A stretch of 64,000 nt of DNA from the human T2T-CHM13v2.0 reference genome, Homo sapiens. Position numbers and translations under genes: made by a program. Below the pieces are notes generated by a model. The model was not told the DNA's origin, ran no database searches, and saw only the letters and a program-made list of their open reading frames with translations. Shown piece after piece: positions 9,113 through 32,102 of this stretch (positions are counted from its first letter, which is position 1; each line of letters opens with the position of its first letter). The DNA lies in assembly GCF_009914755.1 (NCBI RefSeq), contig NC_060935.1; one strand, 5' to 3'.

Positions 9113-9470
9113 AGAGCCGGCCCTGTTTTCACCCTTGTGAAACTGACAGTTCAGTAGGAGAGGTGTCATGCACATAGATAAGTGACTTCAAAAGCTAAGG
9201 GAGTATGGCAGAAGTTGGGACTAAGTAGAGAGGAGGTATAAAGGGGGCTTGCTCAGGTCCACTCTGGAGGGAGTGAGGCTATCAGAAAATGGTAGGAGAT
9301 GATGCTTGGGCTGAGCCTTGACAAGTAAACAGTTACTAATGAGGTAGACAAAGTGGGAAGAGGCTTTCCTGAACCCCCAATTGAATACAGGTCCTATTTT
9401 CTTGTTATATATATATTACTAAGGTAAATATATATAATATATAATAATATAAATTACTTAAATAAGGTAA

Positions 9471-9902
<432 letters not shown>

Positions 9903-10920: not shown

Positions 10921-11207
<287 letters not shown>

Positions 11208-11899
11208 TTATTCCTAATTTTTTAGTTGTGATAATTATGTTAAAGAGTCCTTCTCTTTTTAACATACATAATGATATGTACACATGAAATAATGTGATGA
11301 AATGGTTTGATATTTGGGATTTGCTTTAAAATAATGTAGTGGGGAGGGATATGGATGGGCATCAAAATGAAGCGAGATTAGCCATGAATTCATAATTGTT
11401 GAATCTGAGTGATGGGTACATAGGAATTCATTACATTATTGTGTTTAGATGTTTGAGCTTTTCCATGATAAAAAATTACAAAAAGACAAATTACAAGATA
11501 CTCTTTGAGTTCAGTAAGACTGGAGTAGTTATGGAAATACACAAAATGTTCATGTGACTCAGACCAGAAGGGACAGAAGACTTCCTAGAAGAGAAGTGTC
11601 TGAAGCTCTTCATGCCCAGTTCTTATGGACACCAGGTTTCTTCCTCCAGTGCTGGGAGACAATTACAATCTCATCCTCAGACATAGCTGCAACTTTCTCC
11701 AAAGCCCATGGCCACGTGTAGCCCTAGCATGCTTGGTGCTCTGTCTCTGGCTCACTCTTCTCCTATAGCCTCCCTTTAAACTCAAGATTACAGTATCAGG
11801 CCAAGGTATATTTGCCTCTTTGGCTTTGAGGCAGAGCAGGCACCTAGCAGCAGCCTCTTGGTTGGAAATAGACTGGCTTTGGGTTTTTAAAATTTATTT

Positions 11900-12026
11900 A
11901 TTTAATTTTTTTAGAGATGGCGCCTCATGGTGTTGCCTAGGCTGGATTCAAACTCTTAGGGTCAAAGCATATTCCTGCCTCAGCTCCCCTAGTAGCTGTG
12001 TGTGCATGCATGCATACATGTGTGTG

Positions 12027-12070
<44 letters not shown>
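11900..12070 (-). repeat. Alu monomer fragment followed by a (TG)n microsatellite
   Basis: ttttagagatgg...cctgcctcagc, then a TG run at ~11998-12070. Confidence 0.75.
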
Positions 12071-12073
<3 letters not shown>

Positions 12074-13353
12074 AAACAAGGAGATCCATAAGCCACTACT
12101 GTTAGCTGTACTAAACCTACAGAAACCAGACTCAGAGATGAACCTTAGAGATTATCCAGAACAACTCTCTAATTTTTAAGGGTGGGATAATTGAGACCTG
12201 GAAGCTTGTAACACTTTGCCCAAGTACCCTTACCTTCCTAGCAGTGGGACTTTGACAGAATGCAAGGGATTTGCTTTGTCTTGTTTTTCTCTCTGTTACA
12301 TTTCTCTCTATGCCTCCCTCTCTAAAAAAACAGCTGCCTGATTTCATAATATGCATATTCTCATGTTACAGGCTCTGAGAATAGTTGTAATTCTATTTAA
12401 CAGAACATTTCTTAAATTCGAGTACCCTCCCATGCCCACATTTTTGTTGAATACCTATTGTCCTTGAGAATTTGTGCTCTACAGCGAACACTTTGGGGGC
12501 TCCTAGTCTACACTTTATTAGTTTCTCATTCCTCCATTTATCTATCCCTGATCTCCATTGCTGTGAGAAGCAAAGAAGGAGTTGTAGCGGTTGGCAGTCG
12601 GGCCCCTTCCCCCAACAAGGAGCTCTTCTTTTATCTGCGTTTTTCATCTGCTCTTCCCTGCAGCAGAAGCTTTTCAGTGTGGACGTTTCTCAACTGGAAT
12701 GGGAGCACATGGTTTGGGTAAATGTAATTAGCGTATTCCTAGGGAAATACAATGAGCTATGCAGAATCCAAGTGCTTTGCATGCTTAGAGAAACATCATA
12801 AAATATGTGCCCAGTACTTTTCTCCTTATTGAAGAAAAAAAAGCAGATGGGGATTATGGTAATTAAAATGTAGGATCATTAAAAAAAATAGGGATAATGG
12901 TCACACTTCCTGGTTTTGTGTTCCTTCAGTCCCAAGCATTTGAAATGCCTTTCATAGGTGTGAATAGCTATGAAGAAATCTGCTGATCAGAGGATCCCAA
13001 ATAAGAAAAACTACACAAAAGCCCCATAGTTATAATCCCTATTAAGGACCTCAGGGAGGGAGGCAGCAGGAAGATGGCACTATTTGTACTGTCTGGGAGA
13101 GAGCAGGTACCGACCTGTGCCAGGGTCCTTGTGTGGGCTGCAACTTCTCCCAAAACACCAGCTCTCCAGGTGGAAGACAACCTATAAGGGGCACATCTGA
13201 GAGCTTTGTGACCTTGGCAAGTCATCTTAACTCCTTGGATTTAGATTTCTCCTTATAAACTTGAAATAAAGAATTTTAAAGATACTTTGTGGTTCTAACT
13301 TTTCTTGAATTGAGAAGGACATTGGAGACATAACAACTACATTTTATGTGTTG

Positions 13354-13721
13354 TGTCATATGGTTTTGTTTTGTGTCCCCACGCAGATCTCATCTTGATT
13401 TATAATCCCCAGGTGTTGATGGAGGAATCAAGGGCAAGGCGATTGGATCATGGGGGCAGTTTCCCCCAGGCTGTTCTTGAGATAGTGAGTGAGTTCTCAC
13501 AAGATCTGATGGTTTTATAAGTGGTTGACATTTCCTCCTTCACATGCTGTCTCTCTCCTGCTGCCTTGTGAAGAAGGTGCCTGCTTACCCTTCGCCACGA
13601 TTGTAAGTTTCCTGAGGCCTCCCCAGGCATGTGGAACTTTGTGTCAATTAAACCTCTTTCCTTTATAAATTACCCAATTTCAGGGAAGTTCTTTATAGCA
13701 GTGTGAAAATGGACTAATACA
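13354..13721 (+). mobile_element. MaLR solo LTR (THE1/MST family)
   Basis: atatggttttg...tgtccccac...gatctgatggttttataag...ttgtaagtttcctgaggcctcccc...gtgtgaaaatggactaataca. Confidence 0.88.
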
Positions 13722-14268
13722 GTATGTTATCTCATTGTTTTCTCCCACAGCAACTTGGGATGATAAGGGCCCATCATCCACAATTTCCTGATGAGGACAG
13801 GAAGGTTCAGAGTCCTTAGCTGATTAGGATTAGGCAGCTATTAAGTGATCAAGTCTGAATTTGAACCCAGGTCTGTCTGAGTCACTACATTATACTTTTT
13901 TCACCTCAGGAAATAATGTTTCCCTGGGTCCTAAAGATTAGGAACATGGAAATGCCAGTGAATTTATTAAGCACCTACAGTTGCCGGCCCCTGTGCTATG
14001 AGGTGGAAATATGGTGGGAGCCCTGATGTAGCTAACAGCCCTGAGAGGTTTGAAGGTGCGATTGTTAAGGTTCTTCTTTGTGGCTAAAGAAGAAATACAA
14101 AAATACACTTTGATCTACCTTAAACTTATGCAGCCCTCTACAATTTCCAGGTTCTTCAGGTTCATTTTCTTATTGTGATCTTCACAATAAGTGAGAGAGG
14201 AAATATTATAGACAGTACTAGCCCCATTTCCCAGATAAGAAAACTGAGGCTTAGAAAAGTCGAAGCAT

Positions 14269-14580
14269 GGCCGGGCACGGTGGCTCACGCCTGGCCTGTA
14301 ATCCCAGCACTTTGGGAGGCCTAGGCAGGTGTATCACCTGAGGTCAGGAGTTCGAGACCAGCCTGACCAACATGGTGAAACCCCTTCTCTACTAAAAATA
14401 CAAACATTACTTGGACATGGTGGCACATGCCTGTAATCCCAGCTACTCGGGAGGCTGAGGCAGGAGAATTGCTTGAAACCAGGGGGAGGAGGTTACGGTG
14501 AGCCAAGATCGTGCCATTGCACTCCAGCCTGGGTGACAGAGTGAGACTCCATCTTAAAAAAAAAAAAAAAGAAAAGAAAA
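14269..14580 (+). mobile_element. Alu (AluS-like)
   Basis: Full Alu with A tail. Confidence 0.93.
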
Positions 14581-15447
14581 TTCATAGCAGAACATGAGCC
14601 TTCCTAGGCCATGTCCAGTGCTCTTCTATTACACAAGGCAGCCTTTTGCATTCAGTAGAAAATTGTAATTACTGTTGAATTCAGCCAGTAGTTTTTTTGT
14701 TTTTTTGTTTAGCTGTTTTTTTATGTGGTGCCAAGTAGCTTTGGTGGCAGTTTTCATTTTTCTTTGGCCTTTGTAGGCATAGAAAGATCTGCCTGAAACG
14801 TCCCTGGGCGGAGGCCCACTCTCACTGTTTGCAGACTTCTGGGCTGATGTCTTACAACACAGGCAGTAGTAGTGGCCCCAACTGTCACTGCCTCTTAGCA
14901 AGGCCACATTGTTTTGAATAGACATACCTCTAGCCCAGTTCAGCCTGCATCCACACATGGTGTCCAAAATGGTCCCAGCTAGGGCCATAATTTCTGGACC
15001 CTTCATTCAACCCACCACTCTTTTCCAGGACTGGGCACCATGCTTGAGGAGAGGCACACATAAGTGGAAATGAATTGGGATGCATCCCAGTGTCCATGCT
15101 GGCTGAGATGCAACTGAGGGGACTACAGAGGTTTTGAGAAAGAAACACATAGATGGATGAGGGAGGAGGCAGTGAAAATAAATATTGATTGAGTATTATG
15201 TGTCAGGCATTGTACTAGGGTCTGGAAATAGAGCAACATTCTTGCCCTCGTGGAGCAAATGCCAAATAATAGAAATAATAACTTAGTTTTTCCGAGAGCT
15301 TATCTCAGCCAGACATTGATCTGAGAGCCTCATATAAATAACCACATTTAATCTCCACAAATCCCCTATGAAGTAGCTATTATTATCATACTCATTTTGG
15401 GGGTAACAAACACTGAGGCACAGAGGTAAAGAACTTGATCCAGATCT

Positions 15448-15712
15448 TCTTTTCCAGAGACAGGGTCTCCTCTGTCACCCAGGCTGGAATGCAGGGGCAT
15501 GATCATAGCTCACCACAGCTTCAAACTCCTGGGTGCAAGTGATCCTTCCACCTCAGCCTCCTGAATAGCTAGGACTGCAGGTGTCCATACCACCATCGTC
15601 AGCTAGTTTTTTGTCTTGGCCAGGCTGATCTGAAACCCCCAGCCTCAAACGATCCTCCTGCCTCAGCCTCCCAAAGTGCTGGGATTACAGGCGTGAGTCC
15701 CCACACCTGACC
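15448..15712 (-). mobile_element. Alu (AluJ-like)
   Basis: Antisense Alu sequence. Confidence 0.88.
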
Positions 15713-16183
15713 TTGCTCCAGATACAATCAGCACAAGGCAGCTGGAGGCTGATCCTGTGCTTTCAGGCTGCAACATCTGTGTGCTGAGCCACCACCAAGC
15801 ACACTGCCTTTCTAGAGTCTAAGGAAGCAGCTATAGTGTGTAAAATCTTCACACACGTAGTATGATCCTCACAATAGGTCTACAAGGTAGGTTTTAATGC
15901 CACCATTTTATAAGTTAATGCCACCATTTTATAAGTGAGGAATCTGTGGCCGGGGGAGATGAAGGGATTTGCCCAGCAGGTTAGTGTCCCACAGCTTGAC
16001 CTGCAGCCCACCACAGGACCCAGACAGCAGGATCTCCTTTGTGCTGTAATTTAAACACTCTCTGCAGTGATCACATATTGCTTTAATAACTATAAAACAG
16101 TATTAAGGCAAAGAAAATGGCTTTTCCTTTTGTTTTCTATGGTTACCTTTCAGCAGTGAGGGGTGCCTATATTTCAGAGATAG

Positions 16184-16543
<360 letters not shown>

Positions 16544-19500
16544 TTTCATTTCTTTACTTGCAATTTTATACTTGTGAATTATGTGATGTGGAGAACTCAG
16601 CAGTGAAATTTCTGGAGGCATCAAGAACTATCTCAGCATTTCTGGTCAGGGCCACTCACGGATGTCTTTCCTTCTGTGTGCCCTGTGGGGTGCGTGAATC
16701 TCAGATACAACACATTTTTCTTCTCAGTTATCCACATGTCTTAGGGCAGATTGCCCTACCTTGAAAACAACATTGGCTTGACCAATCATATCCTTTTTTC
16801 TCACTCCACATTTTGGTAATTAGCCCTGAACATTATGGGGTGGTGGCGGCAGGTTATAGATTTTGTAGCTTTTAGAGCTGGAGAAGGTGAGAGGTCATTT
16901 GGACCAACTCCCTTGCTTTACAAGACAAGGAAACTGGGGAAACTGAGGAATTGGAGGGGGCATGACTTGCTTATCCAGCAAGTAGTGGCTTTTTCCGCTA
17001 TCTACACTTCTTAGCTCTCTTAGTCCAACTCCTTCTTTTAAGAGATAACTAAACAGATGTTAAAATGCATGTGACTTGGTCAAGGCCAATAAGTGGATAG
17101 TACAAATGAACTAGAAGCCAGGCCTTCTAGCTCCCACTTTCAGCAGCTGTGAAAGGGAAATGGGGAAGCACAAGTGAGGGAGTGGGGAGAGTGGCGGAGA
17201 AGGGAGAATGCCCCAGAGGTGCTTTAGTGAGGAGGCTTCACAGGGACAACTGGGGCTCAGCCCCAAGGGGACCAAGGAACTGTGTTAAATTGCCTCATCT
17301 GGAGTCACCATCCCACCCAAACTGCATGAACAGATATTTGTCCCAATAATGGGGAAACCATGTCCATAATCAGTGCTTTGGCCAGAAATAGCTCTCTCAT
17401 TTCCTCATCTGGAGTTGGAGAAACTGGAGTATTTTTCCAGACTCTTGTTCCTCATTGGTTGAAGATGATTATTCCTGGCTGGTGCTTCTGGGCTGCCCTG
17501 TATGAGTGGAGCAAGCTTAGTGTCCTGGAGAAAGCCTGCAGGTGGAGAAGTAGAGGTGCAGGTAGAAAGCTGAAGTGTTCTGCAAACTATGTATTGCAGC
17601 TGCTTGTGGACTCAAAAGTGGCCCAAGGGTATGTGGGCTGGAGTCTCGTAGTGTCTGTTATGGAATGTGGTTCAGATTGGACCCAGGAGATAGCAGAAGC
17701 CTTCCCTCTCTGTGATGCACCAAATGCTCTGTTAAGTGCACCAAATGCTTAGTATGAGTCAATTATCTTGGGGAAACAGATGAAGGGACTGAAGTATGCA
17801 TCTGGGGTGATGAGGGGCAAAACAGAGAAAGTTGCACAGACCCAAGAGCTGGATCATGAGAGCAAAAGCCTCAGGAATTGCCCAATCCTGAACAGAGCCT
17901 CATATACTTCCATAGGGTAGGTGACTAGGTCTCTAAGGGGCAACTCAGTACATACACAGCCCTTCTGTTCCCACTCCAGGCATTGGAATGAGATGTGTGG
18001 GAATAGGCGAGGTTTTCTCCCACCAGAATAAGGACTCTAGATGTAGTCTCATGGCCCAGGCCTGGCAGCAACTCCCCTCTCCTCTGCCCAGAGCCCACCT
18101 GCTCTTTGAGGTCTGTGAGCAGTTCCAGGCCTGGGCAAGCTCACTCACCATTTCCAGGTGTCAGCAGGGCACTTGAGGCTGCAGGTAACTTTCCAGCTGA
18201 GATGACCCTTCATGTCAAATGATTTTATGCCACACTGACAAACAGGTATTCATAGTGAAGTGCCTTAGGAAGGAGGCAATGAGAGCTATTTCTGGCTAAA
18301 GCACTGATTATGGACATGGTTTTCCCATTACTGTGACAAATATCTGCTCATGCAGTTTGGGTGTGATGGTGAGAGAATAAACTTGATTCTCTCTCTTTCT
18401 TTCTTTTTTTTTTTTTAAAATTAAAGTCAAGGAAAGGCTGCTAAGAGCCCAGAGGAGGAAGCTGGACAGAGGAACCCAGTCCCTTTGGGTTCGTTGTGTC
18501 CCTCAGCTACCAGGGCCAAAAACAGTGGCTGACACAGCTGGGCTGGTGAATACTTGGCCTCTCTGCTCTTGGCACAGTGGACAGGGACACAGATGCCATG
18601 CTGCCAGCTCTCCTGGTATTTTATCATCATTTCCTTCTCTGTCAGTATCAATATCCAAACAACTGAACTACTATCCAGAGAAGCAGAGAGAGGCTCTGTA
18701 TGCTAAACAAGACGGTGTGTTGGACTGGGAGGCAGGGGATCTGCCACTAACTGGCTCTCTGGGCCTTGGGGTCCTCATCTCCAAAGCCAGGGAGAAAGAC
18801 TAGAGGGTATCTGTCTCCTTTTCCACATCAGGAGGTGATGGTGTCTCATTTTATTTTTATTTTTTCCCTGGGAAGGAAATCTGAGATTGAAGTTCTACTG
18901 TGAGCTAAGGTTTTCTCATTTACTTTAGCAGTTACTTTGGCCTCTCTGAGGTTGTTTTCTCATCTGTAAAGTGAGGATAATAAAGCCTGCTGTTTCTAGC
19001 TCAGGAGGGTTTTGAGGGAAAATCAGGTGAAACGATGATTATAAAAATGCTCTATAAACTATATAATGTTTTATTAATTCATCCATCCATTCATTCATAT
19101 GATTAATGAGCATCTATGCACATGGTGGTTCCTGAGAACCAAACAACACATGTATAGATGCAGTCCCTGGCCTTGACGGGGTCTCAGTTTTATGTAAATG
19201 GAGACAAAAAGCACGTAGATTACTGTGACTCATACTAAAATAGCTATGAGAGCACAGAAGACCTGGCAGCTCTCAGGGGCAAGCTGACCCACACACCTAA
19301 CAGGAGAGTGACACACATATCCAATCCACAGCCATTTACAGAATTTGTGCTCAGTATGTGTGTATCTGTCTCCTGGTTGAGGCCTGCACTTACCTGGCTC
19401 TTAATGTCACTGCCTTTTTTTCCCTCCTGTCTCCTGTTTCTTGATAAGTCTGTTTTTGGCAAGCCCTCCTTCCCAGGCCACAGGGACAGAGCAGGTGTGC

Positions 19501-21510
19501 TGTTCCTTCTTGGGCAAACATCCCACAGAGGGAGTGGGTCCAACTTCCCAGGCAGTACAGGCTGTTCTTAAGTGCACACAGCCTCAGGGACAAGTCAGCC
19601 AAGCTTAACATGCTTCTTTGCATATATATTGTTTATGAAGTCATAGCATGCCATGGAATAAAAGACCAGTGATCCTAACATTCCCTTTCTCCTCATGAAG
19701 TGCAAAACTCCCTTATATCTACTAAGTATATAAGGAGCTGGGCACTGGCCCAGCCTCATGGCCACCAGCACTTTTTTCCAGATGGCAGGAAGCAAGCCTG
19801 CAGGAGATCAGAGGAACTGTCTCTTTAAGAACCTTTGAGCTTGTGGGAAAGGGCATATCAGTAGTGACCAACAGTGAGACTGCCCACTGATGACTAGTCT
19901 GAGGGGTGATCACTGCCCAGAAGAGAGAAGCCTTCTAAGATGCCTTTCTTTCTCATCCTGGTCACTTCTGGAAGTGTTGCTGTATCTCTTCTACTCATCT
20001 TTTTCCCCCAAAGACCCCAGAAGTATTCCTGTGCCTTTTGTTTTTGTAGTAGAAACTCTCCGAACCTTCATGTTACTGCCTAACCAGGTAAACTGGGGCT
20101 CTCTATCTCATCTGCAAATGTTCTGATTGATACCCGTGGGAAGTGAAGTTCTTGCAGCTAAGAGGCTACTCTGTTTGCATGTAGACTTTCACTCCCACTA
20201 ATCGAGTTATTTTTAACGCATTATTAGTTATTGCTTACCAAGAATTAGGTCTATTTGATCCTAAACTGTTTATTCCAATTGTAGTTATTGTTATCATGTA
20301 ATTCAATATAATAGGTAAACTGATGAAATAAAGCTTATTTTCACAAAAACTAAGCAGCATTTTTTAAACCTTCAATAAAAATGAGGAGTTTATAAAAATT
20401 GATATCAAAGGTATAGGTGAAACAACTGGACACGATATAGTAAAAGTTGTACCTGTCACTTTTGTCACATCCCATTGGCCAGAACTTGTTTCCATGGCCA
20501 TGTTTAGTTGCTTGCAGGCTGGAAAATGCCTAGGAGGCCACATGCCCAGCTCAAATCCAGGTTTCCATGACTTCAAGAAAGATTGGGAAAAGAGATACTG
20601 GGGACACGTAGCACTCTATATAAAGGTACTTTTTTCTATGATTCACTGATTTGATCAAAATTTTTTTTGACTAACTAATGGATTATTGGCCCAGATATCC
20701 TCAGATAAGAGGATTCTTACTGTATGGCTACTTTCCCTGAACTCTCATCATACTCTTCACTGGTTTAAGTCCTATTCCGCCATTGTTCATTCATTGGCAT
20801 TTTAATCATTTATTTATTCCACAGATATTTATTGTTGTACGAGGCACTGGACACTGAGGAAACAGGAACAGGCAAGGAAGACAGGTCTAAGGTATTTTGT
20901 TAGAGCAGTACAAGAGGTCTAAGACATCATCTATAAAATAAGAGGGTTAGATTTAATAACTGCAATGCTTGTCACTATACCATAATTCAAAATGCTTACA
21001 CTCCTATTACCAGCTTCCTAGGGCAGAATTTGCTGGGTTTTGAGTCATGGGACGTTGCAGCCATGGTCACTGCTAAAGACTGGAAGTAAGAGAGGCCAGT
21101 GGCTTCAGAGGTGGTCTGGTCTGAGATCTGTGCCTTAGGGGAAGGGAGCCCTGAGTAACTACACCAATCAAATCCTTTCTGTCAAGGAATTTGAAGGCAC
21201 TCAGTGAGACACAGAGGACAGAGAAGCTCAGAGTTAGGCAGAGAAGCCAGTGACAGAGCCATGAGGCTTATACAGGAGTGAGGGAACAAGGAGTTGCTGG
21301 GAGAAATAAAAACTGAGGAATGAGGGGTGCTGTTGGATCATTAGAAGAGTTGTGGTATCCAGAGTGACTACGGCTGGGATGGGTCCCTTTGCTTCCTTAT
21401 TTCCCACATGACAGTTTAGGTAATGTATGAGCTCTTGGCAATTTATTTAATATCTTCATAGTGCTAGGCACTATTCTAGGCATTTTATAATTTGTATATA
21501 GGCACTATCT

Positions 21511-24500
21511 TTTATTTTATTATTTTATACTTTAAGTTCTAGGATACATGTGCAGATGTGCAAGTTTGTTACATAGGTATACATATGCCATGGTGGTTTG
21601 CTGCACCTGTCATCTACATTAGGTATTTCTCCTAATGCTATCCCTCCCTTTCCCCTGCACCCCCCAACAGGCCTGGTGTGTGATGTTCCCCTCCCTGTGT
21701 CCATGCGTCCTCATTGTTCAACTCCCACTTATGAGTGAGAACATGTGGTGTTTGGTTTTCTATTCCTGTGTTAGTTTGCTGAGAATGATGGTTTCCAACT
21801 TCATCCGTGTTCCTGCAAAGGACATGAACTCATTCTTTTTTATGGCTGCATAGTATTCCATGGTGTATATGTGCCACATTTTCTTAATCCAGTCTGTCAT
21901 TGATGGGCATTTGAGTTGGTTCCAAGTCTTTGCTATTGTAAATAGTGCTGCAATAAACATACGTGTGCATGGGTCTTCATAGTAGAATGATTTATAATCC
22001 TTTGGTTATATACCCAGTAATGGGATTGCTGGGTCAAATGGTATTTCTGGTTCTAGATCCTTGAGGAATCACGACACTGTCTTCCACAATGGTTGAACGA
22101 TTTTACACTCCCACCAATGGTGTAAAAGCATTCCTATTTTTCCACATCCTCTCTAGCATCTGTTGTTTCTGACTTTTTAATGATTGCCATTCTAACTGGC
22201 ATGAGATGGTATCTCATTGTGGTTTTGATTTGCATTTCTTTAATGACCCGTGATGATGAGCTTTTTGTCATATGTTTGTTGGCCTCATAAATGGCTTCTT
22301 TTGAGAAGTGTCTGTTCATATCCTTCACCCACTTTTGATGGGGTTGTTTTTTTCTTGTAAATTTGTTTAAGTTCCTTGTAGATTCTGGATATTAGGCCTT
22401 TGTCACATGGACAGATTGCACAAATTTTCTCCCATTCTGTAGGTTGCCTGTTCACTCTGATGATAGTTTCTTTTGCTGTACAGAAGCTCTGTAGTTTTAC
22501 TAGATCCCATTTGTTGATTTTGGCTTTTGTTGCCATTGCTTTTGGTATTTTAGTCATGAAGTCTTTGCCCATCCCTATGTCCTGAATAGTACTGCTTAGG
22601 TTTTCTTCTAGGTTTTTATGGTTTTAGGTCTTACATTTAAGTCTTTAATCCATCTTGAGTTAATTTTTGTAGATGGCATAAGGAAGGGGTCCAGTTTCAG
22701 TTTTCTCCACATGGCCAGCCAGTTTTCCCAACACCATTTATTAAATAGGGAATCCTTTCCCCATTGCTTGTTTTTGTTAGGTTTGTCAAAGATCAGACAG
22801 TTGTAGATGTGTGGTGTTATTTCTGAGGCCTCTGTTCTGTTCCATTGGTCTATATCTCTGTTTTGGTATCAGTACCATGCTGTTTTGGTTACTGTAGCCA
22901 TGCTTATGGTTTGAATTCAGCCTCCAGCTTTGTTCTTTTTCCTTAGGATTGTCTTGGCTATATGAGCTCTTTTTTTGGTTCCATATGAACTTTAAAGTAG
23001 TTTTTCTAATTCTGTGAAGAAAGTCAATGGTAGCTTGATGGGGATAGCATTGAAACTGTAAATTACTTTTGGCGGTATGGCCATTTTCACAATATTGATT
23101 CCTCCTATCCATGAGCATGGAATGTTTTTCCATTTGTGTCCTCTCTTACTTCCTTGAGCAGTGGTTTGTGGTTCTCCTTGAAGAGGTCCTTCACATCCCT
23201 TGTATGTTGGATTCCTAGGTATTTTATTCTCTTTGTAGCAATTGTGAATGGGAGTTCACTCATGATTTGGCTCTCTGTTTGTCTATTATTGGTGTATAGG
23301 AGTGCTTGTGATTTTTGCACATTGATTTTGTATCCTGAGACTTTGCTGAAGTTGCTTATCAGCTTAAGGAGATTTAGAGCTGAGACGATGGGGTTTTCTA
23401 AATATACAATCATGTCATCTGCAAAAAGAGGCAATTTGACTTCCTCTTTTCCTAATTGAGTACGCTTTATTTCTTTCTCTTACCTGATTGCCCTGGCCAG
23501 AACTTCCAATACTATGTTGAATAGGAGTGGTGAGAGGGTATCTTTGTCTTGTGCTGGTTTTTAAAGGGAATGCTTCCAGTTTTTGCCCATTCAGTATGAT
23601 ACTGGCTGTGAGTTTGTCATAAATAGCTCTTATTATTCTGAGATGTGTTCCATCAATAGTTTATTGAGAGTTTTTAGAATGAAGGGGTGTTGAATTTTGT
23701 TGAAGGCCTTTTCTGCATCTGTTGAGATAATCATGTGGTTTTGGTCATTGGTTCTGTTTACGTAATGGATTATGTTTATTGATTTGCATATGTTGAACCA
23801 GCCTTGCATCCTAGGTATGAAGCCAACTTGATCATGGTGGATAAGCTTTTTGCTGTGTTGCTGGATTTGGTTTGCCAGTATTTTATTGAGGATTTTTGCA
23901 TCGATGTTCATCAGGGATATTGGCCTGAAATTTTCTTTTTTTTTGTTATGTCTCTACCAGATTTTGGTATCAGGATGATGCTGACCTCATAAAATGAGTT
24001 AGGGAGTATTCCCTCTTTTTCAATTGTTTGGAATAGTTTCAGAAGGAATAGTACCAGCTCCTCTTTGTACCTCTGGTAGAATTCAGCTGTGAATCCAGCT
24101 GGTCCTGGACTTTGGTTGGTTGGCAGGCTAATAATTACTGCCTCAATTTCAGAACTTGTTATTGGTCTATTCAGGGATTTGACTTCTTCCTTGTTTAGTT
24201 TTGGGAGGGTGTATGTGTCCAGGAATTCATCCATTTCTTCTAGATTTTCTAGTTTATTTGCATAGAGGTGTTTATAGTATTATCTGATGGTAGTTTGTAT
24301 TTCTGTGGGATCAGTGGTGATATCCCCTTTATCAATTTTTATTGTGTCTATTTGATTCTTCTCTCTTTTCTTCTTTATTAGTCTGGCTAGTGGTCTATAT
24401 ATTTTGTTGATCTTTTCAAAAAAACCAGTTCCTGGACTCATTGATTTTTTGAAGGGTTTTTCATGTCTCTATCTCCTTCAGTTCTCCTCTGATCTTAGTT

Positions 24501-25643
24501 ATTTCTTGTCTTCTGCTAGCTTTTGAATTTGTTTGCTGTTGCTTCTCTAGTTGTTTTAATTTTGATGTTAGGGTGTCAATCTTAGATCTTTCCTTTCTCT
24601 TGTGGGCATTTAGTGCTATAGATTTCCCTCTACATACTACTTTAGCTGCGTCCCAGAGATTCTGGTACATTGCGTCTTTGTTCTCATTGGTATCAAAGAA
24701 CATCTTTATTTCTGCCTTAATTTCATTATTTACCCAGTAGTCATTCAGTAGCAGATTGTTCAGTTTCCATGTAGTTGTGTGGTTTTGAGTGAGTTTCTTA
24801 ATCCTGAGTTCTAATTTGATTGCACTGTGGTCTGAGAGACTGTTTGTTATAATTTCCGTTCTTTTGCATTTGCCGAGGAGTGTTTTACTTCCAATTATGT
24901 GGTCAATTTTAGAATAAGTGTGATGAGATGCTGAGAAGAATGCATATTCTGTTGATTTGGGGTGGAGAGTTCTGCAGATATATATGTCCACTTGGTCCAG
25001 AGCTGAGTTCAAGTCGTGAATATCCTTGTTAATTTTCTGTCTCATTGATCTGTCTAATATTGACAGTGTGGTGTTAAAATCTCCCATTATTACTGTGTGG
25101 GAGTCTAAGTCTCCTTGTAGGTCTCTAAGAACTTGCTTTATGAATCTGGGTGATCCTATATTGGATGCATATATATTTAGGATAGTTAGCTCTTCTGGTT
25201 GCATTGATCTCTTTATCATTATGTAATGCCCTTCTCTGTCTTTTTTGATCTTTGTTGGTTTAAAGTCTGTTTTATCAGAGACTAGGATTGCAATCCTTCC
25301 TTTTTTGCTTTTCATTTGCTTGGTAAATATTCCTCCATCCCTTTATTTTGAGCCTATGTGCATCTTTGCATGTGAGATGGGTCTTCTGAATACAGCACAC
25401 CAATGGATCTTGACTCTTTATCCAATTTGCCAGTCTGTGTGTTTTAATTGGGGCATTTAGCCCATTTACATTTAAGGTTAATATTGTTATGTGTGAATTT
25501 GATCCTGTTATTATGATGCTAGCTGGTTATTTTGCCTGTTAGTTGATGCAGTTTCTTCATAGAATTGATGTTCTCTACAATTTGGTATGTTTTTGCAGTG
25601 GCTGGTACCAGTTGTTGCTTCCTTCAGGAGCTCTTGTAAGGCA
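21511..25643 (-). mobile_element. L1PA7/8-like LINE-1, ~4.1 kb, disrupted ORF2 plus the last codons of ORF1
   Basis: Antisense ORF2 peptides ([20 protein letters not shown]-terminal WNQ..CP) with multiple stops and frameshifts; 3'UTR ggtggtttgctgcacc type. Confidence 0.92.
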
Positions 25644-26444
25644 ACAATAAGCATGTAAAAAAATGCTCAACATCAGTGATCATTAGGGAAATGCAACTCA
25701 AAACTACAATGTGATACCGTCTCATGCCAGTCAGAATGGCTATTACCAAAAAGTCAAAAAGTAATAGATGCTGGTGAGGTTGCAGAGAAAAGGGAGCACT
25801 TATACACTGCTAATGGGAATGTAAATTAATTCAGCCACTGTGGAAAGCAGTCTGGAGATTTCTCAAAGAACTTAAAATAGAACTACCATTTGACCCAGGA
25901 ATCCCATTATTGGGCATGTACCAAAAGGAATAGAAAGCACTCTATCATAATGATACATGCGTGTGTATGTTCATTGCTGCACTGTTCACTGTAGTAAAAA
26001 TGTGAAATTAACCTAGATGCCCATCAATAGTAGACAGGATAAAGAAAATATGGTACATATATACCCTGGAATACTACATCATCATAAAAAAGAACAAGAT
26101 TATGTCCTTTGCAGTAACATGGATGGAGCTGGAAGACATTATCCTAAGTCAATTAATGCAGGAACAGAAAACCAAACACTGCATGTTCTCATTTATAGGT
26201 GGGAGCTAAACATTGAATACAGATGGACACAAGGGAACAATAGACACCAGGGCCTAATCGAAGGTGGAGGTTGGGAGGAGACTGAGAATTGAAAAACTAC
26301 CTATCGAGTACTATGCTTATTAACTGAATGACAAAATTATCTGTATACGAAACCCCCACGACATTCAATTTAGCCATGTAACAAACCTACAGATGTACCC
26401 CTTGAACCAAAAATAGAAGTTGGAAAGAAAAAAATAAAATAAAA
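25644..26444 (+). mobile_element. Older L1 3' end (L1PA13-16-like)
   Basis: Sense ORF2 end and 3'UTR (gaaaaactacctatcgagtactatgctt) ending in an A-rich tail. Confidence 0.85.
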
Positions 26445-27621
26445 TTTGTGATCTTAAATAATCTATAGCCAGGCTTTACCGATAAGAATCCTGTACAGCT
26501 TGGGTGAGGGAGTGTTCTTTTGGGATGAGGTCATGGCAAAAGGACTCAGGACCAACTTGAAGAGGCTTCCATCTGACAAAGATATGAGGATTTAATCATC
26601 AAGAAGAATAATGTCTACAATTGGTTAGAATATATCATTTATGTTTAAAGCCATAATTATGATACTTTAGAAACATTTTTAGTTATTTATGAAGGATGCT
26701 CTTTCTTCCACATATTTTACCTAAAGGTAACAGAAAATTGATAGGACATCTGTTTTTATAGAAGTATCCACTTAATAAACGAAGAAATGATACAATCAGA
26801 AATCACCATTTTGCAGCTTCAAATGATATAATAGATCTAGTCAATGATCATCAATGTTACAAAGAGAAAGATAAGCAAGACAAAATGTTCTTTCAAAGGA
26901 CCTACAGAACTTCGCTATAACCAATGTAACCCTTTAACACATAGTACTTAAGTGCCGCCAAGTTTCAAGTCTTGAATGGGAGAATACGGTTTTAAACATT
27001 TAAACACATGGATGGACCATCACCTACTTTGACTGAGTTGTCAATTTTTTGAAAAAGGAGCACTCCTTGAGATGAAATCACTTCCCTGTAACGTGTAACT
27101 GTACAATTCAAATATATCTCCTGTACTCTGAAGGCCCAGTTATTTGGGTGCACAGAAATCTCAATGTGCTTCCTTTATGTGCTTCACAGGTAACAACCCA
27201 TGCCTACCCATTGGGTAACCACCTGGTGTCCAGAGCCATTTGGATGACAATTTCTTGCTCTCATTGACTCTTCCCCTAGGCACATAAACTCAGCCTTAAA
27301 TGATAGAAATAAACGGGTTGAGAAAGATGCTTTAAAATACCCACAAACATCAGCTCTTCCTCCTGCAAGTCTTAGTTGGGGCAGCAGCAGAATTATGGCA
27401 TCTAGACTTTCTGTAAACCCAAGAGTAATGAAACAATAGCAGTTTATTACTTATAGTCATGAGGTATACTCAGAGCCACAGATGGGAAGTAACCAGGCCC
27501 TTGGTGAAAAATAAAATCAGGCTTTTCCAGAGGAAAAAACCCTAGAAAAACACATTGCACATGTCCTCTCTCATTATTGATATAATGAAGTTTATCAGTT
27601 CCCTTCAATTAATGATGTAGG

Positions 27622-28034
27622 TGTCCGGCATCTGAGTCCAAGCTAAGCCATCCTATCCCCTGTGACCTGCACGTACACATCCAGATGGCCAGTTCCTGCT
27701 TTAACTGATGACATTCCACCACAAAAGAAGTGAAAATGGCCTGCTCCTGCCTTAACTGATGTCATTATCTTGTGAAATTCCTTCTCCTGGCTCATCCTGG
27801 CTCAAAAGCTCCCCTACTGAGCACCTTGTGACCCCCACACCTGCCCGCCAGAGAACAACCCCCCTTTGACTGTAATTTTCCTTTACCTACCCAAATCTTA
27901 TAAAATGGCCCCACCCCTGTCTCCCTTCACTGACTCTTTTCAGACTCAGCCCGCCTGCACCCAGGTGAAATAAACAAGCCTTGTTGCTCACACAAAGCCT
28001 GTTTGGTGGTCTCTTCACACAGACACGAGTGAAA
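27622..28034 (+). promoter_or_regulatory. LTR7 promoter/enhancer (5' LTR of provirus 1)
   Basis: Duplicated ttaactgatg enhancer block with ACAAAAGA at 27721-27728, TATAAAA at 27899, GC/CACCC box, AATAAA at 27969; intact downstream splice donor G/GTAAG at 28181. Activity is inferred, not shown. Confidence 0.75.
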
Positions 28035-28505
28035 TTTGGTGCCATGACTCAGATCGGGGGACTTCCCTTGGGAGATCAATCCCCTGTCCTCCTGCTCTTT
28101 GCTGCGTGAGAAAGATCCACCTATGACCTCGGGTCCTCAGACCAACCAACCCAAGGAACATCTCACCAATTTTAAATCGGGTAAGCGGCCTCTTTTTACT
28201 CTCTTCTCCAACATCTCTCACTATCCCTCAACCTCTTTCTCCTTTCAATCTTGGCACCATCTTTCAATCTCTCCCTTCTCTTAATTTAAGTTCCTTTCCT
28301 TTTCTGGTAGAGACAGAGGAGATGTGTTTTATCCGTCAACCCAAAACTCTGGCGCCGGTCACGGACTCGGGAAGACAGTCTTTCCTTGGTGTTTAATCAC
28401 TGTGGGGACACCTGCTTGATTATTCATCCACGTTTCAGAGGTGTCTGATCACCATGGGGATGCCTGCCTTGATCCTTCACCCTTAGTGGCAAGCATGGCT
28501 ATTTT

Positions 28506-28815
28506 GGGGGGCAAGCCCCCCCAACCCTTGTCTCCATGTCTCTGCCCTCTCTTTTCTCTCCACTTTCCTGGGGGGCAAGCACCCCCTACCCCTTCTCTCC
28601 ATATACCTACCCCTTCTCCACTTTCCTGGGGGCAAGCACCCCCCACCCCTTCTCTCCATGTCTCTACCCTCTCTTTTCTCTCCACTTTCCTGCGGGGCAA
28701 GCACCCCCCCCCCACCCCTTCTCTCTGTGTCTCTACCCTCTCTTTTCTCTCCACTTTCCTGGGGGCAAGCATCCCCCACCCCCTTCTCTCCATGTCTCTA
28801 CCCTCTCTTTTCTCT
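28506..28815 (+). repeat. HERV-H leader tandem repeat, 5 units of ~58-68 bp
   Basis: Repeated gggggcaagcaccccc...ttctctccatgtctctaccctctcttttctctccactttcct. Confidence 0.9.
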
Positions 28816-29765
28816 GGGCTTGCTTCCTTCACTATAGGCAACCTTTCACCCTCCACTCCTCCTCCTTCTCCCTTAGCCTGTGTTCTCAAGAACTTAAAAC
28901 TGCTTCTAAATCACAGCTGACCTAAAACCTAAACACCTTATTTTCTTCTGCAATGCCGCTTAACCCCAATACAAACTCGACAATGGTTCCAAATAGCCAG
29001 AAAACGACACTTTCAAATTTTCCATCCTATAAGATCTAGATAATTCTTGCCATAAAATGGGAAAATGGTCTGAGGTGCCTGATGTCCAGGCATTCTTTTA
29101 CACAGCCGTCCCTCTCCAGTCAATGTTCCCAATGCAACTTGTCCCAAATCTTCCTTCTTTCCCTCCTGCCTGTCCCCTCAGGCCCAAACCCAAGTATTGC
29201 TGAGTCTTTCCAATCTTCCTTTTTTACAGACCCATCTGACCTCTCCCCTCCTCCCCAGGCTGCTCCTCCCCAGGCCAAGCCAGGTCCCAATTCTTCCTCA
29301 GCCTCTGCACCCCAACCCTATAATCCTTTTATTACCTCCCCTCCTCACACCTGGTCTGGCTTATAGTTTCATTCCACTACTAGCCCTCCCCTACCTGCCC
29401 AGCAATTTCCTTTTAAAAAGGTGGCTGGAGCTAAAGGCATAGTCAAGGTTAATGCTCCTTTTTCTTTATCTGACCTCTCCCAAATCAGTTAGCATTTAGG
29501 CTCTTTTTCATCAAATATAAAAACCCAGCCCAGTTCATGGCTTATTTGGCAGCAACCCTGAGATGCTTTACAGCCCTAGACCCTGAAAGGTCAGAAGGCC
29601 GTCTTATTCTGAATATGCATTTTATTTTATTACCCAATCCACACCGAATATCAAATAAAGCTCCAAAAATTAAATTCTGGCCCTTAAACTCCACAACAGA
29701 ACTTAATTAACCTCACCTTCAAGGTGTACAATAATAGAGAAAAGTTATAATTACTTGCGTTTACT

Positions 29766-31550
29766 GTGAGACAAAACCCAGCCGCACCTCCAGCACACAA
29801 GAACTTCAAAATGCCTAAGTCGCATGTGCCTAAGCCGCAGCAGTCAAGCATTCCTGCAGGACCTTCTCCATCAGGATCTTGCTTCAAGTGCCAGAAATCT
29901 GGCCACTGGGCCAAGGAATGCCCACAGCCCAGGATTCCTCCTAAGCCATGTCCCATCTGTATAGGACCCCACTGAAAATCAGACTGTCCAACTCACCCGG
30001 CAGCCGCTCCCAGAGCCCCTGGAACTCTGGCCCAAGGCTCTCTGATTCCTTCCCAGATCTTGGCTTAGTGGCTGAAGACTGATGCTCCCCGATCACCTCA
30101 GAAGCTTCCTGGACCATCACAGACACTTTGGGTAACTCTTACAGTGGAGGGTAAGTCCATCCCCTTCTTAATCATTACAGAGGCTACCCACTCCACATTA
30201 CCTTCTTTTCAAGGGCCTGTTTCCCTTGCCTCCATAACTGTTGTGGGTATTGACAACCAGGCTTCTAAGCCTCTTAAAACTCCCCAACTCTGGTGCCAGT
30301 TTGGACAATATTCTTTTATGCACTCCTTTTTAGTTATCCCTGCCTGCCCAGTTCCCTTATTAGGCCGAGACATTTTAACTAAATTATCTGCTTCCTATGC
30401 TACAGCCACACCTCATTGCCACCCTTTTCTCCAGTTCAAAGCCTCCTTCACATCCTGCTCTTGTATCTCCCCATTTTAATCCACAACTATAGGATACCTC
30501 TACTCCCTCCTTGGTGACCGATCATGCACCCCTTACCATCCCATTAAAACCTAATCACCCTTACCCCACTTAAGGCCAATATCCCATCCCACAGCACACT
30601 TTAAAAGGATTAAAGCCTGTTATCACTTGCCTGTTACAACATGGCCTTTTAAAGCCTATAAACTCTCCTTACAATTCCCCCGTTTTACCTGTCCTAAAAC
30701 CAGACAAGCCTTACAGATTAATTCAGGATCTGCACCTTATCAACCAAATTGTGTTGCCTATCCACCCCATGGTGCCAAACCCATATACTCTCCTATTCTC
30801 AATACCTCCCTCCACAACCCGTTCTGTTCTAGATAAACCTAGCTGACCCCATAAATCCTAAATCCTTTCCCCACTCCCCTTTCCATTCCTTAAAAAACAG
30901 CCCTAAAAGCTGCTCCCACACTAGCTCTCCCTAACTCATCCCAACCCTTTTCATTACACACAGCTGAAGTGCAGGGCTGTGCGGTCAGAATGCTTACACA
31001 AGAGCTGGGACTGCACCCTGTAGCCTTTTTATCCAAACAACTTGACCTTACTGTTTTAGTCTAGCCCTCATGTCTGCATGCAGCTGCTGCCACTGCCTTA
31101 ATACTTTTAGAGGCCCTCAAAATCACAAACTATGCTCAACTCACTCTCTACAGTTCTCATAACTTACATAATCTATTTTCTTCCTCACACCTGATACATA
31201 TACTTTCTGCCCCCTTCCACTACCTCTCAGCAAGCCGAACTCATTGCCTTAACTTGAGCCCTCACTCTTCCAAAAGGACTGCACGTCAATATTTATACTG
31301 ACTCTAAATATGCCTTCCATATCCTGCACCACCATGCTGTTATATGGGCAAGAAGAGGTTTCCTCACTATGCAAGGGTCCTCCATTATTAATTCCTCTTT
31401 AATAAAAACTCTTCTCAAGGCCGGTTTACTTCCAAAGGAAGCTGGAGTCATTCACTGCAAGGGCCGTCAAAAGGCATCAGATCCCATTGCTCAGGGCAAC
31501 GCATAGGCTGATAAGGTAGCTAAAAAAGCAGCTAGTGTTCCAACTTCTGT
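29766..31550 (+). pseudogene. HERV-H gag(NC)-pro-pol remnants of provirus 1
   Basis: CFKCQKSGHWAKEC zinc knuckle; protease-like FLIITEATHS...LLGRDILTKL; fragmented RT/RNase H. Confidence 0.9.
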
Positions 31551-32102
31551 CCACCCCCAAAATTTTTGCTGCCCCAACACTTCAATACTATTTTATGTGA
31601 TTTTTCTTATTAATATAAGAAGACAGGAATGTCAGGGCTCTGAGACCAAGCTAAGCCATCATATACCCTGTGACCTGCTTGTATACATCCAGATGGCCCA
31701 AAGTAACTGAAGAATCACAGAAGAAGTGGAAATGGCCTGTTCCTGCCTTAACTGATGACATTACCTTGTGAAATTCCTTCACCTGGGTCATCCTGGCTCA
31801 AAAGCTCCCCCACTGAGCACCTTGTGACCCCCACCCCTGCCAGTCAAAGAACAACCCCCTTTGAGTGTAATTTTCCACTACCTACCTAAATCCTATAAAA
31901 CGGCCCGACCCCTATATCCCTTTGCTGGCTATATCCCTTCACTGGCTCTCTTTTTGGACTCAGCCTGCCTAGACCCAGGTGATTAAAAAGCTTTATTGCT
32001 CACACAAAGCCTGTTTGGTGGTCTCTTCACACGGTCGTGTGTGAAAATCATTTTTTAATTTAATCTACACAATGAATTCTATGACTCAAGTGCTATTATT
32101 AT

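What the first reader, a model, noticed from the sequence alone, without database searches (positions are those of the whole stretch)
27622..32051. HERV-H provirus 1 is probably a chimera of two proviruses (mismatched LTR subtypes, no TSD)
Seen: the 5' LTR has a doubled ttaactgatg block (gatggccagttcctgc...ccaccACAAAAGAagtg), ttttcctttacc and an AATAAA/ccttgttgc signal. The 3' LTR has aagtaactgaagaatcac, a single block, ttttccactacc and ATTAAAaagctttattgc. The flanks are gtagg (27617-27621) and atcat (32047-32051), so there is no 5-bp TSD, whereas proviruses 2 and 3 each have matching LTRs and TSDs. The right flank starts mid-MIR and the left flank shows no MIR continuation. Established: the two LTRs of a provirus are identical at integration. 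Inference: ectopic recombination between two same-orientation HERV-H copies fused them and deleted or rearranged the intervening DNA, putting an ESC-type LTR7 promoter on a different internal region. The cluster may once have held four proviruses.
Basis: partly seen in the sequence, partly recalled or inferred. Interest (0 to 1): 0.8.

Follow-up and report, generated by a model that had tools for sequence, protein, structure and literature searches.

The report
HERV-H pair that inverted 74 kb
This odd retroviral relic is one half of a swapped pair: two oppositely oriented HERV-H copies recombined, flipped about 74 kb of human chromosome 11 between them and exchanged their front ends, a known kind of event that is shown here very cleanly.

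Summary
The core observation holds. The two LTRs of provirus 1 (27622-28034 and 31630-32046) are only 80% alike, and the flanks GTAGG and ATCAT are not a target-site duplication (TSD).

The "same-orientation fusion with deletion" reading is wrong. The partner survives 73.6 kb upstream, outside the window, on the minus strand (G000:C11:83278413-83282008).
- Its 3' LTR is the genome-wide reciprocal best match of our 5' LTR (96%).
- Its 5' LTR is the best match of our 3' LTR (88%).
- Its flanks, CCTAC and ATGAT, are the exact reverse complements of ours.
- In a 63-LTR tree the cross pairs are sisters (99/89 and 88/81). AU tests reject within-provirus pairs (p 0.008 and 0.002).

A younger 7d-type provirus and an older 7o/7bc-like provirus therefore lay in inverted orientation and recombined once. 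The crossover falls in the U5-end/PBS/leader stretch, window about 28029-28259. It inverted about 74.4-74.9 kb and left two reciprocal chimeras. No DNA loss needs to be invoked.

GRCh38 coordinates in Carter et al. 2022 show the same arrangement. That paper classes the 5' LTR as 7d, not ESC-type 7up, with no H1 RNA signal. The "mid-MIR" flank claim is not supported.

The mechanism is known (HERV-K precedents). I found no report of this event. Its age and any polymorphism could not be tested here.

The parts
1..28259 (.). The part of the inverted segment that lies in the window. The whole segment runs from about G000:C11:83281370-83281620 to about 83356029-83356259, a length of about 74.4-74.9 kb. 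Of this, 73,613 bp is non-proviral DNA. Its far end lies inside the partner chimeric HERV-H provirus, which is OUTSIDE the window: G000:C11:83278413-83282008, minus strand, 3596 bp, equivalent to window places -49587 to -45992. The partner's 3' LTR (83278413-83278821) belongs to original provirus 'B' and its 5' LTR (83281615-83282008) to original provirus 'A'. Its flanks are CCTAC on the left and ATGAT on the right.
   Evidence: Derived from the swapped TSDs and the crossover interval. Partner provirus: own-genome searches; sequence and flanks; tree.
27617..27621 (+). GTAGG, the reverse complement of the CCTAC that lies left of the upstream provirus. This is one copy of the TSD of original provirus B.
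27622..28034 (+). 5' LTR ('B5'), the younger 7d-type LTR7. It is the original partner of the upstream provirus's 3' LTR.
   Evidence: Reciprocal best hits genome-wide at 96%. 14 substitutions in 409 sites. Sister pair at 99/89. Both LTRs are named LTR7d2 in Carter 2022 Supp. file 2.
28029..28259 (+). Crossover interval: the last bases of U5, the primer-binding-site region and the leader, including the splice donor at 28180. It is B-type upstream and A-type downstream.
   Evidence: Diagnostic LTR columns reach alignment column 419, LTR position 400. Panel-informative sites are B-like at 349, 407 and (weakly) 485, and A-like from 639/669 on. Sliding windows agree.
28023..28180 (+). Exon 2 of the lncRNA CCDC90B-AS1 (hub annotation). 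Its acceptor AG at 28021-28022 lies in B-type U5. Most of the exon lies in the crossover interval.
   Evidence: Hub gene table; (only the two B-type LTRs have AG at that position).
28260..31629 (+). Internal region derived from the older provirus 'A'. It is heavily deleted and full of stops. Recognisable pieces are a gag zinc knuckle (29751-29975), protease (30069-30479) and RNase H-like fragments (30894-31064, 31258-31506). No Pfam match to reverse transcriptase, integrase or env was found among the 10 ORFs scanned.
   Evidence: A-type affinity; Pfam; deletion map against provirus 3.
28516..28808 (+). Tandem-repeat array in the leader/gag region. It is expanded compared with the partner provirus.
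31630..32046 (+). 3' LTR ('A3'), the older LTR7 type. It is the original partner of the upstream provirus's 5' LTR. It carries a private 17-nt tandem duplication (31913-31929 and 31930-31946).
   Evidence: Its best genome-wide hit is the upstream 5' LTR at 88%. Sister pair at 88/81. 28 substitutions in 394 sites.
32047..32051 (+). ATCAT, the reverse complement of the ATGAT that lies right of the upstream provirus. This is one copy of the TSD of original provirus A.

Best explanation
Two HERV-H proviruses of different age sat about 74 kb apart in opposite orientation.
- Provirus A was the older one (7o/7bc/7d1-like LTRs). It lay on the plus strand at the ATCAT site, which is now the right edge of provirus 1.
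- Provirus B was the younger one (7d-type LTRs). It lay on the minus strand at the CCTAC site, which is now the left edge of the upstream provirus.

A single homologous exchange between them took place in the conserved U5-end/PBS/leader stretch. It inverted everything in between.

Each present provirus is therefore a reciprocal chimera.
- Provirus 1 is B's 5' LTR joined to A's body and A's 3' LTR.
- The upstream provirus is A's 5' LTR joined to B's body and B's 3' LTR.

Shown: the LTR pairings, the swapped reverse-complement TSDs, one switch of type in each provirus, and the same arrangement in GRCh38.

Inferred: that the exchange was non-allelic homologous recombination (NAHR) in the germ line, and its date. 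It happened after B integrated. B's LTR pair differs by K2P 0.035. Carter et al. place the 7d wave at 9-20 Mya.
For: 1. Own-genome searches. Each search scored the best 40 of about 3000 candidates.
- The best non-self hit of our 5' LTR is the upstream 3' LTR (96%, 664 bits, against at most 635 for the rest). This is reciprocal.
- The best non-self hit of our 3' LTR is the upstream 5' LTR (88%, 539 bits against at most 529).

2. Flanks.
- CCTAC lies left of the upstream provirus and GTAGG left of ours.
- ATGAT lies right of the upstream provirus and ATCAT right of ours.
- These are exact reverse complements at the two pre-specified positions. Chance is about 0.25^10, roughly 1e-6.

3. Four-LTR alignment. 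Of 44 columns that split the LTRs two against two, 42 group the cross-provirus pairs, 1 groups by present provirus and 1 groups 5' against 3'. The 42 span columns 55-419 of 432.

4. Substitution differences.
- Cross pairs: 14/409 and 28/394.
- Within the present proviruses: 52/398 and 38/388.

5. ML tree of 63 LTRs.
- The cross pairs are sisters at 99/89 and 88/81.
- Eleven control proviruses, including proviruses 2 and 3, have sister LTRs.

6. AU tests reject within-provirus sisterhood (delta lnL 50.3, p 0.008; delta lnL 61.5, p 0.0016).

7. Sliding 200-nt windows scored against 12 B-type-LTR and 6 A-type-LTR proviruses.
- Ours: 6 of 6 windows are B at starts 1-251. At starts from 601 on, 45 are A, 24 undecided and 4 B, out of 73.
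- Upstream: 5 A and 1 undecided out of 6 at starts 1-251. At starts from 601 on, 47 are B, 9 undecided and 0 A, out of 56.

8. The two bodies have different deletion architectures.

9. Carter 2022 Supp. file 2 (hg38) lists both loci in the same places and orientations. Each is split into two '1ltr_int' calls of different subfamily. LTR7d2 is the name given to both members of the B pair.

10. The RefSeq transcript NR_186344.1 splices exon 2 to exon 3 across the junction (hub table).
Against: The A pair is the weaker one.
- Our 3' LTR is not among the 40 best hits of the upstream 5' LTR.
- Its sister support is only 88/81, and its branch is long (0.081 against 0.026).
- Carter's remasking names the two LTRs differently (7d1 and 7bc).

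The crossover map is imperfect.
- 4 of 73 later windows in ours score B-like.
- Four scattered sites (provirus positions 729, 789, 811 and 859) point the 'wrong' way.
- The interval rests on a panel chosen partly because its members resembled the two proviruses. The members were labelled A or B by their LTRs only.

No outgroup genome could be examined, so the un-inverted state is inferred and not seen.

No old repeat is split by either insertion site. That independent continuity check was therefore not available.
Confidence: 0.93

Rival explanations
1. Two same-orientation HERV-H copies recombined, which fused them into one chimera and deleted the DNA and proviral halves between them.
For: Mismatched LTRs and a missing TSD within provirus 1 are what such an event would also leave.
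Against: - The reciprocal chimera exists, inverted, 73.6 kb upstream. It has the complementary LTR types and reverse-complement TSDs.
- A deletion would have destroyed that product.
- A deletion would leave flanks that match nothing else.
Confidence: 0.01
2. One intact provirus whose LTRs drifted apart. One LTR was overwritten by gene conversion from another HERV-H, and the TSD decayed by point mutation.
For: Gene conversion between HERV LTRs is known (recalled). Provirus 3 in the window shows that a TSD can decay by one base.
Against: - It would need 5 of 5 TSD positions to change.
- It would also need both flanks, by chance, to match the reverse complement of the flanks of the very provirus that carries the two matching LTRs (about 1e-6).
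- The internal region switches type together with the LTR.
Confidence: 0.01
3. The inversion happened as in the best explanation, plus a further event that affected the older pair. Examples are partial gene conversion of the 3' LTR, a second exchange tract near the crossover, or a third element contributing sequence.
For: - Long branch and private 17-nt duplication of the 3' LTR.
- Different subfamily names for the two A LTRs.
- Scattered 'reversed' sites at provirus positions 729-859.
- 4 B-like windows inside the A body.
Against: - The ATCAT/ATGAT match ties the two A LTRs to one integration.
- They are still each other's sisters in the tree.
- The reversed sites are few, and the panel is heterogeneous.
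- The subfamily names are unstable even between the paper's own two tables.
Confidence: 0.04
4. Assembly artefact in T2T-CHM13.
For: None found.
Against: - GRCh38 coordinates and strands in Carter 2022 Supp. files 1 and 2 show the same two chimeras. Their sizes are 3592 and 4421 bp, against 3596 and 4425 bp here.
- A curated transcript splices across the junction (hub table).
Confidence: 0.005

Closest known systems
Recombinant HERV-K(HML-2) proviruses of Hughes & Coffin (Nat Genet 2001; Genetics 2005). Both are recalled. I saw them only as entries in the reference list of PMC3228705. PMC1456821 is not held.
   Same: The diagnostic signature is the same. The LTRs of one provirus fall in different clades, the TSDs do not match within a provirus, and they do match across two proviruses. 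The inferred cause, ectopic homologous recombination between dispersed proviruses, is also the same.
   Different: - The family is different: HERV-H, a gamma-like ERV with 5-bp TSDs.
- The partners belong to different LTR7 subfamilies.
- Both reciprocal products survive 74 kb apart.
- The crossover is mapped to about 230 nt.
HERV-H-mediated NAHR copy-number variants and a translocation. Sources: Campbell et al. 2014, PMC4195946, passages read; Hermetz et al. 2012, PMC3292815, search listing only.
   Same: Full-length HERV-H elements serve as the substrate for homologous exchange, with breakpoints inside the elements.
   Different: - Those events involve directly oriented elements. The passages read speak of predicted 'directly oriented' HERV pairs.
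- They give recurrent pathogenic or benign deletions, duplications or translocations in living people.
- This case involves inverted elements and gives a balanced inversion, seen in both human assemblies examined (T2T-CHM13 and, via Carter's tables, GRCh38) and probably old.
- The present-day identity of the two partners is about 84-85% over the shared 5' part. It is 91-93% in the 100-nt bins that cover positions 401-600 of the crossover interval.
Inversions mediated by inverted L1 or Alu pairs, and transposable-element-mediated rearrangements. Sources: Balachandran et al. 2022, PMC9675761, search listing and abstract start only; Lee et al. 2008, recalled.
   Same: Balanced inversion by exchange between inverted interspersed repeats.
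   Different: Here the repeats are LTR proviruses. Their paired LTRs and TSDs allow the ancestral state to be reconstructed without an outgroup.
Solo-LTR formation by intra-element LTR-LTR recombination
   Same: Homologous recombination involving ERV sequences.
   Different: Solo-LTR formation is intra-element and deletes the body. This event is inter-element and keeps both bodies.

Membership tests
HERV-H (LTR7/HERVH-int) provirus | LTR7-type LTRs at both ends | tested here: met
   Both LTRs match thousands of genomic LTR7-like candidates. Carter 2022 Supp. files 1 and 2 list the locus as HERVH with 7d and 7bc LTRs.
HERV-H (LTR7/HERVH-int) provirus | Internal gag-pro-pol remnants collinear with other HERV-H copies | tested here: met
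   Collinear with proviruses 2 and 3 and with panel copies. Pfam finds a zinc knuckle, retroviral protease and RNase H fragments.
HERV-H (LTR7/HERVH-int) provirus | Matching 5-bp TSD and sister LTRs, as in a single integration | tested here: not met
   The flanks are GTAGG and ATCAT. The LTRs are not sisters (AU test p 0.008). The locus is therefore proviral DNA but not one integration.
Reciprocal chimeric proviruses from an inversion between inverted ERVs | Each LTR's closest relative is an LTR of the other provirus | tested here: met
   Caveat: the pairing is one-directional for the older pair.
Reciprocal chimeric proviruses from an inversion between inverted ERVs | TSD halves are swapped between the two proviruses as reverse complements | tested here: met
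   CCTAC with GTAGG, and ATGAT with ATCAT.
Reciprocal chimeric proviruses from an inversion between inverted ERVs | The partners lie on the same chromosome in opposite orientation | tested here: met
   Plus strand at 83355622-83360046 and minus strand at 83278413-83282008.
Reciprocal chimeric proviruses from an inversion between inverted ERVs | One homologous switch point in each provirus | tested here: met
   Both proviruses switch type between about positions 408 and 638. A few discordant sites and windows remain.
Reciprocal chimeric proviruses from an inversion between inverted ERVs | The un-inverted arrangement is present in an outgroup or in other haplotypes | not testable with these tools
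   No primate genomes or human pangenome are held. The supplement searches that could be read gave nothing.
   The reciprocal product was found upstream.
ESC-active LTR7up HERVH | 5' LTR of subfamily 7up and transcription in H1 ESC | tested here: not met
   Carter 2022 Supp. file 1 gives 7d1 with RNA 0, GRO 0 and chimeric transcript 0. Supp. file 2 gives LTR7d2. This rests on the paper's tables. I did not classify the LTR against consensus sequences.

The most novel reading that the evidence does not exclude
The inversion is recent, either specific to humans or African apes or even still segregating. It also reshaped the lncRNA CCDC90B-AS1. The acceptor AG of the lncRNA's exon 2 (28021-28022) exists only in the 7d-type U5 that the inversion turned onto the plus strand. 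The older LTR that sat there before has no AG at that place.
Probability: 0.15. Interest if true: 0.55.

Novelty: new member of a known kind. Interest (0 to 1): 0.38.

Why it matters
- It is a textbook-clean example of an ERV-mediated balanced inversion. Both reciprocal products, both TSDs and a roughly 230-nt crossover interval can be read from a single genome.
- It extends HERV-H-mediated rearrangement from deletions, duplications and translocations to an inversion.
- It matters for annotation. Dating these two 'proviruses' by LTR divergence (13.1% and 9.8%) would overstate their age. The true pairs differ by 3.4% and 7.1%.
- Pipelines that need matching LTRs call both loci 'truncated'. Classifying a HERVH locus by its 5' LTR assigns the wrong subfamily to its body.
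- The inverted 73.6 kb lies between CCDC90B and DLG2. The hub table lists no protein-coding gene there, so a large phenotypic effect is not expected.

Tried and rejected
- I looked for an old repeat split by either integration site, which would have been independent proof of the un-inverted junctions.
  - A local BLAST of the two reconstructed empty sites against the window plus loci gave no hit at E 1e-3. The script then stopped on the empty list.
  - Own-genome searches of the four flanks followed. The right flank of provirus 1 has a repeat that starts about 55-72 nt away.
  - The flank right of the upstream provirus has an old repeat that ends about 110-120 nt away.
  - Both flanks of site B are single-copy. 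No such test was therefore possible.
- A PRDM9-type 13-mer (recalled motif) has 7 matches in the window against 1.75 expected, but none inside provirus 1. It gives no support for a hotspot.
- I searched the literature for this inversion. One search found 0 papers for 'CCDC90B-AS1'. None of the listed papers links HERVH to an inversion here.
- I searched supplements by coordinate prefix.
  - Gibbon inversion map: no relevant hit in the 3 files searched, with 1 file not searched and 1 cut.
  - Macaque map: nothing readable.
  - Catacchio 2018: 0 hits in 2 files, with 1 file not searched.
  - Ape T2T paper: the supplement was unreadable.
  - These supplements may bear on whether the inversion is already catalogued.
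- I did not place the LTRs against the published subfamily consensus sequences. I took the subfamily names from Carter's tables instead.
Full report
**The observation.** Provirus 1 has its 5' LTR at 27622-28034, its internal region at 28035-31629 and its 3' LTR at 31630-32046.
The 5' LTR has the doubled block, and the two LTRs have different polyadenylation-signal contexts.
- The two LTRs are 80.0% identical over 435 BLAST columns. They differ at 52 of 398 aligned sites.
- The flanking 5-mers are GTAGG and ATCAT.
- The two other proviruses in the window behave as single integrations. Their LTR pairs are sisters at 100/98 and 100/94. Their flanks are AGTTA/AGTTA (with 1 nt of edge slack) and ATCAT/ATTAT.
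- The mismatch in provirus 1 is therefore real and specific to it.

**The 'mid-MIR' remark is not supported.**
- The only repeat in the right flank begins about 55-72 nt beyond the LTR. It is 77-82% identical to other copies.
- The left 300 nt are single-copy.

**Where the partners are.** The window's own genome is held, so I searched it with each LTR.
- The best non-self hit of the 5' LTR is at G000:C11:83278413-83278821 on the minus strand (96%, 664 bits). All other hits score at most 635 bits. The hit is reciprocal.
- The best non-self hit of the 3' LTR is at 83281615-83282008 on the minus strand (88%, 539 bits against at most 529 for the rest).
- These two hits are the 3' LTR and the 5' LTR of one 3596-bp minus-strand HERV-H. 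It lies 73,613 bp upstream of provirus 1, outside the window.
- Its left flank ends in CCTAC and its right flank starts with ATGAT. These are the exact reverse complements of GTAGG and ATCAT.
- Two 5-mers matching at positions fixed in advance has a chance of about 1e-6.

**What this means.** A crossover between two inverted repeats inverts the DNA between them and yields two reciprocal chimeras. The outer flank of each chimera keeps its TSD copy. Its inner flank carries the reverse complement of the other element's TSD copy. That is the pattern seen here.

I call the younger original provirus B. It lay on the minus strand at the upstream site with TSD CCTAC. I call the older one A. It lay on the plus strand at the downstream site with TSD ATCAT.
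- Provirus 1 is B's 5' LTR joined to A's body and A's 3' LTR.
- The upstream provirus is A's 5' LTR joined to B's body and B's 3' LTR.

**Tests of the pairing.**
- In the four-LTR alignment, 44 columns split the LTRs two against two. Of these, 42 group the cross-provirus pairs, 1 groups by present provirus and 1 groups 5' against 3'. The 42 run from column 55 to column 419 of 432.
- Substitution differences are 14/409 for the B pair and 28/394 for the A pair. Within the present proviruses they are 52/398 and 38/388.
- I built an ML tree of 63 LTRs: the four, the four from proviruses 2 and 3, 35 from 19 fetched proviruses, and 20 nearest hits of the A-type LTRs. It makes the B pair sisters at 99/89 and the A pair sisters at 88/81. 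Eleven control proviruses also show sister LTRs.
- AU tests reject trees that hold the two LTRs of provirus 1 together (delta lnL 50.3, p 0.008). They also reject trees that hold the upstream provirus's two LTRs together (delta lnL 61.5, p 0.0016).

**Weak points of the A pair.**
- Our 3' LTR is not among the 40 best hits of the upstream 5' LTR, which reach 93%.
- It sits on a long branch (0.081 against 0.026).
- It carries a private 17-nt tandem duplication.

**The crossover.** I labelled 18 fetched proviruses by their LTRs only: 12 B-type and 6 A-type. Some of them had been picked because they were the best hits to the two bodies. I then scored 200-nt windows of both chimeras against these sets.
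- Provirus 1 is B-like in 6 of 6 windows starting at 1-251 and undecided in 6 of 6 at 301-551. From 601 on, 45 windows are A-like, 24 undecided and 4 B-like, out of 73.
- The upstream provirus is the mirror image. At starts 1-251 it has 5 A-like and 1 undecided window out of 6. From 601 on it has 47 B-like, 9 undecided and 0 A-like, out of 56.
- Site by site, the last B-type states in provirus 1 are at LTR position 400 (from the LTR pairs) and at 407 and weakly 485 (from the panel). The first A-type states are at 639 (weak) and at 669-717. Four discordant sites lie at 729, 789, 811 and 859.
- The exchange therefore lies in about provirus positions 408-638, which is window 28029-28259. This covers the end of U5, the primer-binding region and the leader, including the splice donor at 28180.
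- Positions 401-600, which lie within this interval, are the best-conserved stretch beyond position 200 between the two elements today: 91-93% per 100 nt, against 77-87% in the adjoining bins (the 101-200 bin in U3 is 94%).
- The inverted segment is then 73,613 + 2p bases with p = 408-638, which is about 74.4-74.9 kb.
- The two bodies have different deletion maps, as expected for separate origins.
- A's body retains a gag zinc knuckle, protease and RNase H fragments. No Pfam match to reverse transcriptase, integrase or env was found among the 10 ORFs scanned.

**Names, ages and expression.** These come from Carter et al. 2022 (PMC8912925). I read passages of the main text and searched Supp. 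files 1 and 2.
- Supp. file 2 (hg38) lists chr11:83341986-83345184 as LTR7d2 and 83342392-83345577 as LTR7d1, both on the complement strand. It lists 83419136-83423141 as LTR7d2 and 83419548-83423556 as LTR7bc, both on the plus strand.
- Each locus is thus split into two 'truncated, 1 LTR' calls. GRCh38 has the same arrangement, and the B pair shares one name.
- Supp. file 1 names the loci by their 5' LTR: 7d1 for ours and 7o for the upstream one. The names are therefore unstable between the paper's own tables.
- The paper places 7o/7bc in a 25-40 Mya wave and 7d1/7d2 in a 9-20 Mya wave. This fits the K2P distances of 0.075 for the A pair and 0.035 for the B pair.
- With the often-used rate of about 0.13% per Myr per lineage (recalled), these distances give roughly 29 and 13 Myr.
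- For our locus the paper's H1 table gives RNA 0, GRO 0 and chimeric transcript 0. The paper also states that robust ESC transcription is a property of 7up. The 'ESC-type promoter' inference is therefore not supported.

**Date of the inversion.** It must post-date B's integration. Nothing in the human sequence dates it further, and no primate genome or pangenome is held. I found no paper describing it. The coordinate searches of four inversion papers' supplements were empty or unreadable, so prior cataloguing cannot be excluded.

**Comparison with what is known.**
- The LTR-and-TSD signature of recombinant proviruses was established for HERV-K by Hughes and Coffin. This is recalled. I saw only the reference-list entries, and the Genetics paper is not held.
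- HERV-H elements are known NAHR substrates for deletions, duplications and a translocation (Campbell 2014, passages read; Hermetz 2012, listing).
- This case is a balanced inversion between HERV-H copies of different subfamilies. It is a new member of a known kind. It is not surprising to a specialist, but it is unusually complete.

**A side observation.** Exon 2 of the lncRNA CCDC90B-AS1 (28023-28180, hub table) uses an acceptor AG at 28021-28022. Among the four LTRs, only the two B-type ones have AG at that position. The annotated exon therefore depends on the LTR that the inversion brought in. I found no literature on this lncRNA.

Noticed in passing
window 28021-28180: The acceptor AG of CCDC90B-AS1 exon 2 (28021-28022) is present only in the two 7d-type LTRs of the four compared. 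The older LTR that occupied this place before the inversion has no AG there. The annotated exon therefore depends on the inversion.
   Followed up: partly
window 28516-28808: A tandem array of roughly 60-120-nt units lies in the leader/gag region. Provirus positions 862-1152 have no counterpart in the partner provirus.
   Followed up: no
window 31913-31946: The 3' LTR carries a private 17-nt tandem duplication. Its terminal branch is about three times longer than that of its original partner (0.081 against 0.026).
   Followed up: partly
window 32101-32346: An interspersed repeat starts about 55-72 nt beyond the 3' LTR. It is 77-82% identical to 39 scored genomic copies out of 1656 candidates. 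The family is not named, and this divergence does not look MIR-like.
   Followed up: partly
window 50674-50678: The left flank of provirus 3 is ATCAT, the same 5-mer as the TSD of original provirus A. In proviral orientation the two differ, so this is probably coincidence.
   Followed up: no
Carter 2022 Supp. files 1 and 2 (hg38 chr11:83.34-83.45 Mb): The paper's two tables give the same LTRs different subfamily names. Ours is 7d1 in one and 7d2 in the other. The upstream locus is 7o and 7d1. Provirus 2 is 7d1 and 7up1. Provirus 3 gets three overlapping calls.
   Followed up: no
whole window: The PRDM9-type 13-mer occurs 7 times against 1.75 expected from shuffles. None of the matches lies in provirus 1. 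Proviruses 2 and 3 each hold one (40643 and 55865).
   Followed up: no
L007, L008, L013, L015 (G000:C9:35.02 Mb, C15:90.27 Mb, C7:102.16 Mb, C23:119.64 Mb): Several other fetched HERV-H proviruses have one LTR that matches the query LTRs much less well than the other, for example 94% against 82%. Most of these pairs are still sisters in the tree. They were not checked for TSDs.
   Followed up: no
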